Source of the DNA: Minisyncoccia bacterium | GTDB lineage: Bacteria > Patescibacteriota > Minisyncoccia > Phycocordibacterales > UBA918 | DNA: 64,000 bases | Direction: 5' to 3' | Assembly (NCBI GenBank): GCA_041742075.1 | Contig: JBGSJJ010000005.1 | Location: 17,648 to 81,647 of the forward strand | Shown: piece after piece, positions 19,835 to 35,156 of the stretch | How the letters are laid out: every line of letters starts with the position of its first letter | Position numbering within the stretch: the stretch's first letter is position 1 | Position numbers and translations under genes: made by a program | The notes under the pieces: model-generated | The model's database searches: none | What the model was told of the DNA's origin: nothing | The model's input: only the letters and a program-made list of their open reading frames with translations

Positions 19835-20043
19835 AGCTCGCCGGCTATTTGTTTGGTTTAGTATCTCCGCAATTCCAAATCGTGTTTTTAATTCAGTAAT
19901 TTTGATCTGTCATTGTACGAAAGTCAGAAACAAGTTCGTATACTAGGCACCGAGTTGCGCGCACGCGAGACGTACTAGAGTGTACGATGAACGTGTGAGC
20001 GACGAAGGTAACAACGTAGACGGATTTGTTTATGACTTTTGCG

Positions 20044-24278: not shown

Positions 24279-24776
24279 CTAGATATAATTGACGCTTTTA
24301 AGAAGCATGAACACTAGAAATAATAGTGCTAAAACAGTAATAAGCTTGATATCGCGCCGAAATTTTTTATTTAGGAACATATCCCGACGATTCTCAGGAG
24401 TCCAAGCTTCTACCCACACTTTTCGCGAATAAAGCCAGAAACGTTTTAACTCTGTCCAGGTTAGAGCGCTTCTTAAATACATCCCTAAGAACATGAGAGC
24501 GTAGCCACCGAGAAACTGGTACCCAAACGGCAGGCTGACCATTCGGGTGAAGAAGTTATAGCTACCGTCTTCGATCATCATTTCGAGTAGTTTTGGCTCG
24601 GTATAGAATCCAAGCAAAATTGCAATTACACCAAAATATATAGCTACCGTGATGCAAATCAATAATGCTCCAACAACGATGCAGACGATGCCAGAAATGT
24701 TTCTCAGGGTCATGTGAGGACAACCTTTTCTGTGACGTTCTTTTGACACACTACCACACGCGGGTATAATATGCAC
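24279..24776 (-). CDS. Hypothetical membrane protein
   Basis: About 4 TM helices. No recognised motifs. The true start is probably an internal Met (MTLRNISG). Confidence 0.35.
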   Translation of the reverse strand: MHIIPACGSVSKERHRKGCPHMTLRNISGIVCIVVGALLICITVAIYFGVIAILLGFYTEPKLLEMMIEDGSYNFFTRMVSLPFGYQFLGGYALMFLGMYLRSALTWTELKRFWLYSRKVWVEAWTPENRRDMFLNKKFRRDIKLITVLALLFLVFMLLKSVNYI

Positions 24777-24845
24777 ACCAAACGCACCGATACCCTCGAT
24801 GCGATTTTGGAGGTATTAGTAGCTCATTAATTTTTTGTAAAACGC

Positions 24846-26836
<1,991 letters not shown>

Positions 26837-26896
26837 GTGAGCAAACGAGCGTAGCGACTATTGCGAACTTATGTCCCGATTTTTTCTCCCCAGAGA

Positions 26897-27166
26897 AAAT
26901 CGCTGGACAAAGGGAAATAATCAAATGGGAAAAACCGCGTTTGCGTCCGACGGGAGCCCTGAATTATCCGTGCAAGGTGACTGTTGTTTTCTCCCCAGAG
27001 AAGCATAGAAAATCCATTAGGAATAGAATTTTCTATGTATGAAAATCATTGTCGCTACGCTCTGTGATTTACACAATCGCTGGACAAAGGGAAATAATCA
27101 AATGGGAGGAACCGCGTTTGCGTCCGACGGGAGCTCCGCACTATCCGTGCAAGGTGATTGTTTGTT
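26897..27166 (+). repeat. Two copies of a 90-nt element about 179 bp apart, 3' of groEL. Candidate structured sRNA or tandem micro-ORFs, each with an RBS
   Basis: Copy 1 at 26897-26986 and copy 2 at 27076-27166 are about 85% identical (ATCGCTGGACAAAGGGAAATAATCAAATGGGA..ACCGCGTTTGCGTCCGACGGGAGC...ATCCGTGCAAGGTGA). Copy 1 is flanked by a 16-bp direct repeat TTTTCTCCCCAGAGAA. An intrinsic terminator follows copy 2. Confidence 0.45.
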
Positions 27167-27188
27167 CTCTTTCGCGAGATATGAAAAA

Positions 27189-27213
27189 GCCAGCCACACG
27201 AGCTGGCTTTTTC
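27189..27213. terminator. Bidirectional intrinsic terminator (GCCAGC-cacacga-GCTGGC plus T-tract)
   Basis: aaaaaGCCAGCcacacgaGCTGGCttttt is visible directly. It closes the groESL / repeat-element transcript. Confidence 0.6.
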
Positions 27214-27295
27214 ATTTGTTCTACACTATCTGCGTAGAGTGATGCCTTACCTCGAACTATAAAACACAGACGACCCTACAGGATCGTCTGTGTTT

Positions 27296-27336
27296 GTATA
27301 AAAGCAAACTGGCGCACGTTCTTAAACGTGCGCCAG
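27296..27336 (-). terminator. Intrinsic terminator for the minus-strand wHTH gene
   Basis: CTGGCGCACGTTcttAAACGTGCGCCAG hairpin followed (on the minus strand) by a U-rich tract, 7 bp past the stop at 27343. An additional hairpin lies at 27264-27293. Confidence 0.5.
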
Positions 27337-27342
27337 ACAGAT

Positions 27343-27924
27343 TTATACTTTTGTACCAATAGTAATTTTTCTTCGGGAAGTTTCAGGTATCCAGGCCTGC
27401 AACTCTTCTACTGATGTCTGGTAAGCCAGAATGGCTTCACTCATCGTGATGAGTTTAAAACAAACTGCCAGCAATAGTGTTTTTCGGTGCGTCGTTTGCC
27501 ATCCTCTGGTACGAGGGCTAGGCAATTCGGCTCTCCATAGAGTGCTCCCGTCCGGCAGTTTTATGGACTGAGGCGAGCCATTTTTAAGTACCTGGTAGAT
27601 ATCTTCAGGTGGACGATGTTCACGTATGATGTAACCTCTACCCTTAACTACTTCGACACAACCATGAGGGATTTTTTTGAAAATCTTGAAAAAAAGTATG
27701 TCAAATTGTTTATCTCGTACTATAGTTTCGTTGGGAAAGAATCTCTCGCTAAGCATTTTTTTCGTGGTAACAATGTCTTTGCGTACGGCAATCCATTCCA
27801 GAATGTCGTATTCAAGGCCTGATAGGTTAACTTTCTTCCCAGCAACGTGTAGTTCACGGCTAGTTAAGCGAAACTCCAAGCTGTTTACAACGTACGTTTG
27901 TGTGGGCAAGACAGCGCTTGTCAT
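27343..27924 (-). CDS. Standalone OmpR/PhoB-type winged-helix (Trans_reg_C-like) DNA-binding protein with a C-terminal HTH_17-like motif
   Basis: No receiver domain. The segment LEFRLTSRELHVAGKKVNLSGLEYDILEWIAV...VEVVKGRGYII fits the OmpR C-terminal wHTH pattern. The C-terminal SEAILAYQTSVEELQAWI is excisionase/MerR-like. Confidence 0.45.
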   Translation of the reverse strand: MTSAVLPTQTYVVNSLEFRLTSRELHVAGKKVNLSGLEYDILEWIAVRKDIVTTKKMLSERFFPNETIVRDKQFDILFFKIFKKIPHGCVEVVKGRGYIIREHRPPEDIYQVLKNGSPQSIKLPDGSTLWRAELPSPRTRGWQTTHRKTLLLAVCFKLITMSEAILAYQTSVEELQAWIPETSRRKITIGTKV

Positions 27925-28022
27925 CGTTCTTACTCCAGTTCTATCTACTAGAAAGCTAACACACTAATTAAAATTGTAAATAAATACAAAACTGGCTGTC
28001 TCAAGGTGAGACAGCCAGCAAC

Positions 28023-28706
28023 TTAAATAGTTTCGAGCCAAGAACAGGGCAACTCTTCACGATAGCTTTGGTCCGTAAAGTAGGAAATATACCAATCCCA
28101 AATTTCCTCATTCGTTATGCCGTAGGCATCGCGGGCTTCTTTAAGTGAAATAAGTCTATACGCTAATGCTTGGATAATACGTACTTTGTGAATAGCGCAC
28201 CAAATTTTGAGAGTATGCTTTGGCAAATCTTTTCGATCAAGAATCTGGTAATTACTCATTACTATCGCCGTGGGGGCTGTGGTAAGTGAGATAGGTAGTA
28301 GCGGTTTACGCGTATTGGCTATGCCGTAACCGCGATTCTTAATGTACTGAATCGTATTGCGAGCGTGAACGTAGCCTAACAGTCGAGCGTTAATTCTTCG
28401 AACCGTCAAACCAAGCGAATTGCTATTTACTAACGTATTGCCGATTGGGCTTTCGGCAATACGTTTGGTGCTTGTAAAAGTACCGATTCTGACAGCGAGG
28501 TATTCAAGGAGGGCATACTCATGAGGATAGAGAACAAGGCAATTCCCGGCTACAACCAGCCGGCTAGTATCCAAATTGAACTGAAGGTCGTTGCATACGT
28601 AGTATTGCGAACCGTCATGGCTCGGGTATCCAGGGATATCCGACATCATATTCATGTTCTGTCTCCACTTTGTGTCAAAACCTTTCCTTTCATGATTAAA
28701 GCACAA
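28023..28706 (-). CDS. Paralogous standalone OmpR-type winged-helix protein with a C-terminal HTH_17-like motif
   Basis: LQFNLDTSRLVVAGNCLVLYPHEYALLEYLAV...IKNRGYGI (wHTH), and the C-terminal LISLKEARDAYGITNEEIWDWY. Same architecture as the neighbouring gene. Confidence 0.45.
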   Translation of the reverse strand: MCFNHERKGFDTKWRQNMNMMSDIPGYPSHDGSQYYVCNDLQFNLDTSRLVVAGNCLVLYPHEYALLEYLAVRIGTFTSTKRIAESPIGNTLVNSNSLGLTVRRINARLLGYVHARNTIQYIKNRGYGIANTRKPLLPISLTTAPTAIVMSNYQILDRKDLPKHTLKIWCAIHKVRIIQALAYRLISLKEARDAYGITNEEIWDWYISYFTDQSYREELPCSWLETI

Positions 28707-28792
28707 ACAAAGTAAACTACAAAAAAGCTATCTTGACGAAAGTAAAAATATGGTACACTACTGACATTACTATAAAGTAACAGACATTTGTT

Positions 28793-35069: not shown

Positions 35070-35156
35070 CGGAGGGTGGGGGATTTGAACCCCCGATCAG
35101 GTTACCCCAATACCGCCTTTCCAAGGCGGCGCACTAGACCACTATGCGAACCCTCC
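35070..35156 (-). tRNA. tRNA-Ser (anticodon GGA), class II with long variable arm
   Basis: Minus-strand sequence GGAGGGTTCGCATAGTGGTCTAGTGCGCCGCCTTGGAAAGGCGGTATTGGGGTAACCTGATCGGGGGTTCAAATCCCCCACCCTCCG. Acceptor stem GGAGGGU/ACCCUCC, anticodon loop UUGGAAA, T-loop GGTTCAAATCC. The 3' trailer forms a terminator hairpin with CCACCCACCCTCCAC at 35038-35052. Confidence 0.8.

What the first reader, a model, noticed from the sequence alone, without database searches (positions are those of the whole stretch)
26897..27166. Duplicated ~90-nt element just 3' of groEL, ending at a strong terminator: candidate sRNA or a pair of RBS-equipped micro-ORFs
There are two copies, about 85% identical and 179 bp apart. 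Each contains GGACAAAGGGAAATAATCAAATGGGA, which is an AAGGGA Shine-Dalgarno-like box 9 nt before an ATG. Read as ORFs, they encode MGKTAFASDGSPELSVQGDCCFLPREA (27 aa) and MGGTAFASDGSSALSVQGDC... Copy 1 is bounded by a 16-bp direct repeat TTTTCTCCCCAGAGAA. The pair is followed by the terminator at 27189-27213. Each copy can also fold (GGAC...GUCC; CCGCG...CGACGG). This could be a 3'UTR-derived sRNA family, a mini mobile repeat, or tandem small-peptide genes.
Basis: seen in the sequence. Interest (0 to 1): 0.55.

Follow-up and report, generated by a model that had tools for sequence, protein, structure and literature searches.

The report
Duplicated conserved non-coding element after groEL
An uncultivated Paceibacteria (CPR) bacterium carries two copies of a short non-coding sequence between the groEL stop codon and its terminator; its closest known relative keeps one copy under selection, so it is most likely a small lineage-specific RNA element and not a pair of peptide genes.

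Summary
The repeat is real. Copies at 26898-26985 and 27075-27162 match at 81 of 88 positions, with starts 177 nt apart. The 16-nt direct repeat and the terminator at 27181-27215 are also real.

The host is a Paceibacteria (CPR) bacterium. In relatives, groEL is followed within 20-40 nt by its terminator. Here about 345 nt, holding both copies, lie between the stop codon and that terminator.

The closest relative (GroEL 96% identical) has a single homologous copy at the same place. Neutral sites between the two genomes are near saturation: four-fold degenerate sites are 38.5% identical. Yet 45-59 nt of the core are 76-80% identical, including an invariant 17-mer, TTGCGTCCGACGGGAGC. The core is therefore under selection.

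The selection does not look like selection on a protein:
- There is no codon periodicity.
- The two window ORFs diverge by a frameshift, and one runs through the terminator.
- This genome barely uses Shine-Dalgarno sequences.

A shared 47-nt hairpin with two compensatory pairs can be drawn, but three sequences cannot establish it.

No Rfam family matches. No other copy was found in about 77 kb of the same genome or in about 430 kb from relatives.

Best reading: a lineage-restricted RNA element in the groESL 3'UTR (a cis-element or an sRNA precursor), recently duplicated. Interest is modest.

The parts
25196..26836 (+). groEL (546 aa), preceded by groES at 24846-25175. This is the upstream gene whose transcript most likely carries the element.
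   Evidence: ORF list. Cpn60 and Cpn10 Pfam hits on identical products. GroEL homologues at 81-96% identity in Paceibacteria MAGs.
26837..27215 (+). Inferred groESL 3'UTR: 345 nt between the stop codon and the first strong intrinsic terminator. It holds both copies and is highly structured overall.
   Evidence: In relatives the terminator follows groEL within 20-40 nt. Fold of 26837-27225: -137 kcal/mol, z = -5.6. Co-transcription with groESL is inferred, not shown.
26847..26861 (+). Left arm of a long-range inverted repeat (GAGCGTAGCGACTAT). It pairs with 27048-27062 and encloses copy 1.
   Evidence: Inverted repeat I2, 15 nt, 93% complementary. It forms in the minimum-free-energy fold of the region.
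26872..26909 (+). AU-rich hairpin just upstream of copy 1, overlapping its first 12 nt. It contains the first copy of the 16-nt direct repeat (26882-26897).
   Evidence: Inverted repeats I4 and I7 and direct repeat D3.
26898..26985 (+). Copy 1 of the 88-nt repeat.
   Evidence: CM R1 scores 92.6 bits on 26921-26990.
26925..26971 (+). Candidate conserved 47-nt hairpin of copy 1. The outer helix is AUGGG.AA / UU.UCCGU. The inner helix is GUUU.CGU[CCG]ACG.GAGC.
   Evidence: RNAalifold on the three copies: 14 pairs, 2 compensatory, 0 broken. It is not the minimum-free-energy fold of this copy.
26941..26957 (+). Invariant 17-mer TTGCGTCCGACGGGAGC (copy 1).
   Evidence: Identical in copy 1, copy 2 and L086:5744-5760.
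26987..27002 (+). Second copy of the 16-nt direct repeat. It forms the small hairpin UUCUC-CCCA-GAGAA. The analogous hairpin after copy 2 is UUCUC-UUUCGC-GAGA (27166-27179).
   Evidence: stem kept, loop different.
27004..27037 (+). AU-rich 10-bp hairpin in the spacer between the copies.
   Evidence: Inverted repeat I8.
27048..27062 (+). Right arm of the long-range inverted repeat.
27075..27162 (+). Copy 2 of the 88-nt repeat.
   Evidence: CM R1 scores 94.7 bits on 27098-27167. The same sequence is present in an independent Logan contig, L003.
27102..27148 (+). Candidate conserved hairpin of copy 2. It includes the invariant 17-mer at 27118-27134.
27181..27215 (+). Strong bidirectional intrinsic terminator. 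It is the positional equivalent of the groEL terminator in relatives.
27262..27336 (-). Two further terminator-like hairpins (27262-27295 and 27309-27336) that close the convergent gene 27343-27924.
27343..28706 (-). Two convergent paralogous genes (193 and 227 aa, 29% identical), each with a winged-helix (OmpR C-terminal type) domain plus a DUF1153 domain. They are neighbours of the element and are not shown to be linked to it.
   Evidence: Pfam. Paralogy.

Best explanation
The repeat is a non-coding sequence element that lies in the 3' untranslated region of the groES-groEL transcript of an uncultivated Paceibacteria (CPR) bacterium. It most likely acts at the RNA level on the + strand.

The functional core is about 45-60 nt (26924-26982 in copy 1, 27101-27159 in copy 2). 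It is built around the invariant 17-mer UUGCGUCCGACGGGAGC and was inherited from the common ancestor shared with the closest known relative, which has one copy. In the window's lineage a roughly 90-105-nt piece containing the core was duplicated locally and recently.

Proposed mechanism (inferred): RNA polymerase reads from groEL through both copies and stops at the terminator 27181-27215. The conserved block, possibly presented on a 47-nt hairpin, is then recognised by a protein or a complementary RNA. It would act either in cis, on stability or processing of the groESL mRNA 3' end, or in trans after release of a terminator-ended fragment, as a 3'UTR-derived small RNA.

What is shown: the position, the duplication, the conservation despite near-saturated neutral divergence, and a substitution pattern unlike that of a coding sequence. 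What is inferred: transcription, the hairpin, and the mode of action.
For: Position:
- In eight relatives groEL is followed within 20-40 nt by an AAAAAGC...GCTTTTT terminator.
- In the window the equivalent terminator is 345 nt downstream, and both copies lie between the stop codon and it.

Selection:
- Against the nearest relative, L086, groEL is 79.8% identical at the nucleotide level. 298 of 332 differences are at third codon positions, and four-fold degenerate sites are only 38.5% identical.
- In the whole groEL-lemA gap the only alignable piece is the core. Window 26924-26982 matches L086 5729-5785 at 76%, and a 45-nt piece matches at 80% (E about 1e-5).
- A 17-mer is identical in all three copies.

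Structure:
- RNAalifold gives one hairpin common to all three copies. All 41 cells are paired.
- There are two compensatory pairs: G-C to A-U in L086, and A-U to G-C between copy 1 and copy 2.
- Three of the seven differences between copy 1 and copy 2 fall in two adjacent pairs, and both stay paired.
- Five G-U pairs favour the + strand.

Other:
- The distance from the conserved block to the next strong terminator is about 100-140 nt in both copy 2 and L086.
Against: - There are no expression data.
- Only three sequences exist, and two are near-duplicates. The covariation test reaches only 49/500 shuffles.
- The consensus hairpin is not the minimum-free-energy fold of either window copy. Its mean pair probability is 0.07-0.33, and the local folds are no more stable than shuffles.
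- In L086 a weak AU-rich terminator-like hairpin sits between groEL and the element, so co-transcription there would need read-through.
- No complementary target stood out among 53 gene starts: the best duplex was -17.2 kcal/mol, and 80 of 100 shuffled blocks did as well.
- A conserved block of this size could equally be a DNA site.
Confidence: 0.5

Rival explanations
1. DNA-level site. The conserved block is a binding or recombination site on double-stranded DNA. It could be an operator for one of the winged-helix regulators encoded next to it, and the second copy would add a second site.
For: - A 17-nt invariant block flanked by variable positions is about the size of an operator.
- In both genomes the next gene is a convergent winged-helix gene.
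- The RNA fold is thermodynamically unimpressive.
Against: - Conservation extends over 45-59 nt, longer than a usual operator.
- The site lies at the 3' ends of two convergent genes, behind up to three terminators, and not near a promoter.
- Lineages that carry similar wHTH-DUF1153 genes in the same slot (L087-92, L095) lack the element.
- The block has no internal direct or inverted repeat symmetry. This is read from the sequence.
Confidence: 0.15
2. Small selfish or duplicative repeat. The unit is a miniature mobile or slippage-prone element with no host function. Its similarity to L086 would reflect insertion preference or recent transfer rather than selection.
For: - Copy 1 is flanked by an exact 16-nt direct repeat and enclosed by a 15-bp inverted repeat.
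- The L086 copy is also flanked by a direct repeat of about 17 nt, GATAT(AT)TTTTCTTAT, whose sequence differs from the window's.
- A different hairpin element is clearly dispersed in this clade.
- Logan assemblies break in this region.
Against: - No further copy was found in the 64-kb window, in about 13 kb of extra same-genome DNA, or in about 430 kb from 60 or more relatives.
- Exact probes found nothing in the genome, metagenome, viral, phage or plasmid collections.
- The element sits at the same locus in both genomes.
- Conservation is block-wise, with a perfect 17-mer inside unalignable flanks. That is the signature of long-term constraint, not of recent transfer.
- The break at the end of L003 is fully explained by the 30-mer that the two copies share.
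Confidence: 0.15
3. Two small protein genes (27 aa, and a second of at least 27 aa) translated from the groESL mRNA.
For: - The frame with the ATG is open in both copies.
- An in-frame, gap-free codon alignment with L086 is possible and gives ASDGS(S/P)xLSV(Q/E)(G/S)D. 3 to 5 changed codons are synonymous and 7 to 8 are non-synonymous.
Against: - The synonymous/non-synonymous split is no better than in other frames, and variable columns fall 7/4/6 by codon position. In groEL the split is 28/6/298.
- L086 has no ATG, GTG or TTG in that frame, and no gene was called there.
- An indel shifts the frame after codon 20 between the two window copies, so the C-termini and stop codons differ. ORF2 runs through the terminator to 27242.
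- Host genes lack Shine-Dalgarno boxes: GGAG in 2 of 51, GGAGG in 0 of 51. Many have a -10 box 6-11 nt before the ATG, a pattern these ORFs do not show.
- There is no Pfam match.
- The 67-aa product is not on record as a called gene.
Confidence: 0.07

Closest known systems
3'UTR-derived small RNAs of Enterobacteriaceae (for example CpxQ, SroC, DapZ, NarS, GlnZ, UhpU). This comparison rests on general knowledge; titles seen: PMC7038943, PMC9731577, PMC12704781.
   Same: The element lies between a stop codon and the mRNA's own intrinsic terminator, on the same strand. It has a short, highly conserved block inside otherwise fast-evolving sequence. It is restricted to a narrow lineage.
   Different: There is no evidence here for processing, for a chaperone (Hfq or ProQ), or for a target. 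The host is a CPR bacterium, for which I know of no described case. The element is duplicated within one 3'UTR. No Rfam family matches.
Small repeated intergenic hairpin elements (REP/BIME, ERIC, RUP and other MITE-like repeats). General knowledge.
   Same: It is short, non-coding and rich in hairpins. It sits after a gene's stop codon, with flanking direct and inverted repeats around copy 1.
   Different: Those families are dispersed in tens to hundreds of copies per genome. Here only locus-specific copies were found. The core is also conserved at the orthologous site across near-saturated divergence.
The long-hairpin element found here after groEL in L005 and L094 (model R2).
   Same: It occupies the same genomic slot, immediately 3' of groEL in Paceibacteria. 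It is non-coding and has no Rfam match.
   Different: The sequence and architecture are unrelated. R2 is a single roughly 105-125-nt hairpin with 8 compensatory pairs, and it is dispersed: it occurs between groES and groEL in L005 and after an RNase J-like gene at window 19908-20040. Neither model detects the other element.

Membership tests
Any Rfam 15 family | Match to a covariance model at or near its gathering score | tested here: not met
   The whole window at gathering thresholds gives only a tRNA. 26780-27350 at E<=10 gives only terminator-driven chance hits far below the gathering scores. The L086 region gives nothing.
3'UTR-derived sRNA / 3'UTR cis-element | Lies between the stop codon and the intrinsic terminator of the parent mRNA, on the same strand | tested here: met
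   The terminator is positionally equivalent to the groEL terminator of relatives.
3'UTR-derived sRNA / 3'UTR cis-element | Sequence block conserved beyond neutral expectation | tested here: met
   76-80% identity over 45-59 nt, with a 17-mer invariant, against 38.5% identity at four-fold degenerate sites of groEL.
3'UTR-derived sRNA / 3'UTR cis-element | Transcribed, and (for an sRNA) accumulating as a discrete processed species | not testable with these tools
   No transcriptome data are available.
3'UTR-derived sRNA / 3'UTR cis-element | Complementary target site | tested here: inconclusive
   The best duplex with 53 gene starts in the window is no better than for shuffled blocks. Pairing to the groESL mRNA is not significant and not conserved. 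Only about 7% of a genome was available.
Structured RNA (conserved hairpin) | Base pairs supported by covariation and by thermodynamic stability | tested here: inconclusive
   14 pairs, 100% paired, 2 compensatory, but 49/500 shuffles do as well with only 3 sequences. The hairpin is not the minimum-free-energy fold, and z is about 0.
Small protein-coding gene | Start, frame and stop conserved in the orthologue | tested here: not met
   L086 has no start codon in that frame. The two window copies differ by a frameshift, and ORF2 has no stop before 27242.
Small protein-coding gene | Substitutions concentrated at synonymous or third positions | tested here: not met
   Variable columns fall 7/4/6 by codon position. 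Changed codons split 3-5 synonymous to 7-8 non-synonymous, similar to other frames.
Small protein-coding gene | Translation-initiation signal typical of the genome | tested here: not met
   GGAG lies upstream of 2 of 51 genes, and both exceptions are the neighbouring wHTH genes. Host genes often have a -10 box 6-11 nt before the ATG, and these ORFs do not.
MITE / dispersed repeat | Many dispersed copies in the genome | tested here: not met
   Two adjacent copies only, in about 77 kb of the same genome. The rest of the genome was not available.
MITE / dispersed repeat | Terminal inverted repeats and a target-site duplication | tested here: inconclusive
   A 15-bp inverted repeat encloses copy 1 and a 16-nt direct repeat flanks it. 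Copy 2 has neither, and no duplication flanks the inverted repeat itself (read from the sequence).
Diversity-generating retroelement template/variable repeat pair | Differences confined to adenines of one copy | tested here: not met
   Only 3 of the 7 differences involve an A in copy 1. The others are C/T exchanges. The presence of a reverse transcriptase nearby was not tested.

The most novel reading that the evidence does not exclude
The element is a genuine regulatory RNA of a CPR bacterium. It would consist of a 3'UTR-borne module with an invariant recognition stem-loop and, next to it, a 6-8-nt stretch that differs in all three copies (CCUGAAUU, UCCGCACU, UCGGUAUU), giving each copy a different specificity. 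It also carries a purine-rich Shine-Dalgarno-like tract (GGGAGG in copy 2, AAGGAG in L086) in a genome whose own genes do not use Shine-Dalgarno sequences. It could therefore couple chaperonin expression to another process through RNA-RNA or RNA-ribosome contacts.
Probability: 0.08. Interest if true: 0.6.

Novelty: new member of a known kind. Interest (0 to 1): 0.3.

Why it matters
Very little is known about non-coding RNA and post-transcriptional control in CPR/Patescibacteria, and none of it comes from experiments on this clade. A selected non-coding block in the 3'UTR of the main chaperonin operon would be a concrete candidate to test in metatranscriptomes. So would a second, unrelated hairpin element that occupies the same slot in sister lineages. 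The practical lesson is narrower. In a genome that hardly uses Shine-Dalgarno sequences, an 'SD + ATG' string is not evidence for a gene.

Tried and rejected
- Rfam on the window, the region, and the regions of L086 and L094: nothing.
- Exact-probe scans:
  - A 26-mer in genome contigs found 0.
  - A 20-mer in metagenome contigs gave one chance hit inside a high-GC coding region, L085. In hindsight this probe was badly chosen, because the one known homologue (L086) differs inside it (T to C).
  - Three probes in viral contigs found 0.
- blastn of the 506-nt region against phages and plasmids: no match.
- Pfam on six reading frames: only a sub-threshold chance hit.
- Diversity-generating retroelement template/variable pair: rejected, because the differences are not specific to adenines.
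- Type I toxin: rejected, because the peptide is not hydrophobic.
- CRISPR- or TIGR-like array: rejected. There are only two units, 88 nt long, and Tandem Repeats Finder finds no array.
- Long-range pairing of the block with the groESL mRNA or its leader: not significant and not conserved.
- Target search at gene starts: no signal.
- Relation to the L005/L094 hairpin family: none detected by either model.
- SRP-RNA-like look of GUCC-GACG-GGAGC. I considered this from memory and rejected it. The loop is not of the GNRA type, there is no Rfam SRP hit, and there are two copies inside a 3'UTR.
- Early idea that the whole 1.95 kb between groEL and lemA is one recent insertion: revised. Regulator genes occupy this slot in all lineages with 88-96% GroEL identity.
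- Homologue search with the neighbouring 193-aa protein returned only the protein itself.

Full report
**What is there.** The window holds groES (24846-25175) and groEL (25196-26836) on the + strand. Downstream lie two direct copies of an 88-nt sequence, at 26898-26985 and 27075-27162. They match at 81/88 positions, and their starts are 177 nt apart. With one gap the similarity runs to 96 nt. The 16-nt direct repeat TTTTCTCCCCAGAGAA flanks copy 1 exactly, and a 14-bp terminator with a T-run sits at 27181-27215. First, a 15-bp inverted repeat (26847-26861 / 27048-27062) encloses copy 1. Second, copy 2 is followed by a hairpin with the same stem as the direct repeat but a different loop. Each 93-nt copy folds no better than shuffled sequence (z about 0). 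The 389-nt stretch from the stop codon to the terminator is strongly structured (z = -5.6).

**Whose genome, and what is normal at this locus.** The GroEL protein is 81-82% identical to GroEL of Candidatus Paceibacteria/Paceibacterota MAGs and only about 53% identical to proteobacterial GroEL. The host is therefore an uncultivated CPR bacterium. Contigs carrying exactly this protein come from three Logan runs. In dozens of relatives groEL is followed by lemA. In eight close ones the intergenic DNA reads: stop codon, 20-40 nt, an AAAAAGC...GCTTTTT terminator, then the lemA promoter. In the window the equivalent terminator (27181-27215) is 345 nt from the stop, and the two copies fill the gap. 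They therefore most likely lie in the groESL 3'UTR. This is an inference from position; I have no expression data. Between that terminator and lemA (28793) sit two convergent paralogous genes, each with an OmpR-type winged helix plus DUF1153. I first read the whole 1.95 kb as one insertion. Closer relatives showed that assorted regulator genes occupy this slot in every lineage with 88-96% GroEL identity. Only the repeat region is special to the window.

**Is the element found elsewhere?** No Rfam family matches it. There is no other copy in the window. Exact probes found nothing in the genome, viral, phage or plasmid collections. The single metagenome hit is a chance match in a high-GC coding region. 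A protein search with GroEL revealed closer relatives than the species-representative genomes, and I fetched their loci. The closest is L086, a JGI metagenome contig with GroEL 96% identical. It has one homologous copy at L086:5725-5793, again between the groEL stop and a convergent winged-helix gene. Five other lineages at 88-93% lack it. A covariance model built from the three copies finds nothing else in the window plus 65 related loci (470 kb), nor in about 13 kb of extra DNA from the same genome. The element is therefore restricted to the window/L086 lineage. It is single-copy in L086 and was duplicated in the window after the split: copy 1 and copy 2 differ at 7 positions, while each differs from L086 at 14-15 of 56 aligned positions.

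**Is it under selection?** Between the window and L086, groEL is 79.8% identical at the nucleotide level. 298 of 332 differences fall at third codon positions, and four-fold degenerate sites are only 38.5% identical, which is close to saturation. A locus-wide comparison aligns only coding regions, about 100 nt of the groES leader, and one piece of the groEL-lemA gap. That piece is the core of the repeat: 59 nt at 76% or 45 nt at 80%, E about 1e-5. Within it the 17-mer TTGCGTCCGACGGGAGC is identical in all three copies. Their identity between copy 1 and copy 2 therefore reflects how recent the duplication is. The selected part is roughly 26924-26982 and 27101-27159.

**Coding or not?** Several independent points argue against the micro-ORFs.
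- Changed codons split 3-5 synonymous to 7-8 non-synonymous, which is no better than in other frames.
- The invariant block keeps all five of its third positions unchanged while neighbouring first and second positions vary. This points to constraint on nucleotides rather than on amino acids.
- L086 has no ATG, GTG or TTG in that frame. In frame +1 it has a stop codon inside the conserved stretch, and conservation continues beyond that stop.
- An indel shifts the frame after codon 20 between the two window copies, and the second ORF reads through the terminator to 27242.
- Of 51 long ORFs in the window, only two have GGAG upstream and none has GGAGG. Many have a TATAAT- or TATACT-like box 6-11 nt before the ATG, the layout expected for leaderless mRNAs. 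An 'SD-like box 9 nt before ATG' is not how this organism marks its genes.
- Pfam finds nothing.

**RNA structure.** RNAalifold on the three copies gives one 47-nt hairpin (26925-26971; 27102-27148; L086 5729-5774). The outer helix is AUGGG.AA / UU.UCCGU. An internal loop follows, whose 3' side differs in all three copies. The inner helix, formed by the invariant block, is GUUU.CGU[CCG]ACG.GAGC. All 41 cells pair. Two pairs carry compensatory double changes, and three of the seven differences between copy 1 and copy 2 lie in two adjacent pairs that stay paired. Five G-U pairs favour the + strand. The caveats are serious:
- With three sequences the shuffle control cannot do better than about 1 in 10 (49/500).
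- The hairpin is not the minimum-free-energy fold of either window copy (mean pair probability 0.07-0.33).
- L086 prefers a slightly different register for the outer helix.

I treat the hairpin as a hypothesis. The nucleotide-level constraint is the solid result.

**Mechanism.** My best account (confidence about 0.5) is an RNA-level element carried on the groESL 3'UTR. It would act either in cis, on 3'-end stability or processing, or as the conserved recognition block of a terminator-ended fragment released from the 3'UTR. In both copy 2 and L086 the block lies about 100-140 nt upstream of the next strong terminator. I could not find a target: pairing with groESL itself and with 53 gene starts is at chance level. 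The rivals are:
- a DNA site, for example for the adjacent regulators;
- a small selfish or slippage-prone repeat, suggested by the flanking direct repeats, which exist in both genomes with different sequences, and by the inverted repeat around copy 1;
- the peptide genes.

The evidence for and against each is given in the rival entries.

**Assembly check.** A Logan contig from the right (L003) stops exactly at the first k-mer specific to copy 2. That is what a k = 31 graph does when a 30-mer is shared by the two copies, so both variants are present in the reads. The 89-nt spacer between the copies is unique sequence, so the duplication is not two alleles stitched together. This last step is inference. 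A contig from the left (L001) ends at 26876, before any repeat I can identify. This is unexplained and could reflect a structural variant in the population.

**Verdict.** The feature is real and under selection, and it is almost certainly non-coding. It is a lineage-specific element in the groEL 3'UTR that was recently duplicated. It is a new member of a familiar kind (3'UTR RNA elements or sRNA candidates) in a clade where none have been studied. It rests on three sequences and no expression data. Interest is modest (0.3).

Noticed in passing
Whole window (51 ORFs of at least 150 aa), with exceptions at 27343-27924 and 28023-28655 (- strand): Genes in this genome essentially lack Shine-Dalgarno sequences: GGAG lies upstream of 2 of 51 and GGAGG upstream of none. 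Many genes have a TATAAT- or TATACT-like box only 6-11 nt before the ATG, as expected for leaderless mRNAs. The only two genes with TGGAG 7-8 nt before the ATG are the two wHTH-DUF1153 paralogues next to the element.
   Followed up: partly
L005:4145-4275, L094:2177-2309, L005:2354-2486, window 19908-20040 (- strand): A different non-coding element sits right after groEL in two other Paceibacteria lineages. It is a long hairpin of about 105 nt with 30 pairs, 8 of them compensatory between just two sequences. A model built from it also hits a copy between groES and groEL in L005 (E = 2e-4). It also hits, weakly, a site just 3' of the RNase J-like gene in the window (E = 0.015). That site folds into a 125-nt hairpin with z = -3.4. 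This looks like a dispersed hairpin-repeat family with no Rfam match.
   Followed up: partly
Window 27216-28792 and the equivalent gap in L086-L096, L005, L006: The gap between the groEL terminator and lemA is a variable slot. Different lineages carry different sets of minus-strand regulator genes there: an OmpR-type winged helix alone, wHTH+DUF1153, DUF1153 alone, or response regulators. More distant relatives have nothing there.
   Followed up: partly
Window 24740-24845 and L086:3550-3656: The groES leader is conserved between the two genomes. It has a TTGACAC-N17-TATAAT promoter, then a hairpin (CGCACCGA...UCGAUGCG) followed by UUUUGGAGGUAUUAG. I saw no CIRCE-type inverted repeat.
   Followed up: no
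Window 26862-26876 (ends of Logan contigs L002 and L001): The 43-kb Logan contig that carries groEL ends at 26876, 22 nt before the repeat begins and at no repeat I can identify. A possible cause is a structural variant in the population, for example a single-copy allele, or a drop in coverage.
   Followed up: no
Window 27224-27243: A 20-nt stretch after the terminator, CACTATCTGCGTAGAGTGAT, is 75% identical to the 3' part of copy 2 and also resembles the L086 version (TCTGTAGAAAGTGA). It could be a relic of a third copy or a chance match. The covariance model does not report it.
   Followed up: no
Window 35070-35156 (- strand): The only Rfam hit at gathering score in the window is an 87-nt tRNA with a long variable arm (57.8 bits).
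   Followed up: no
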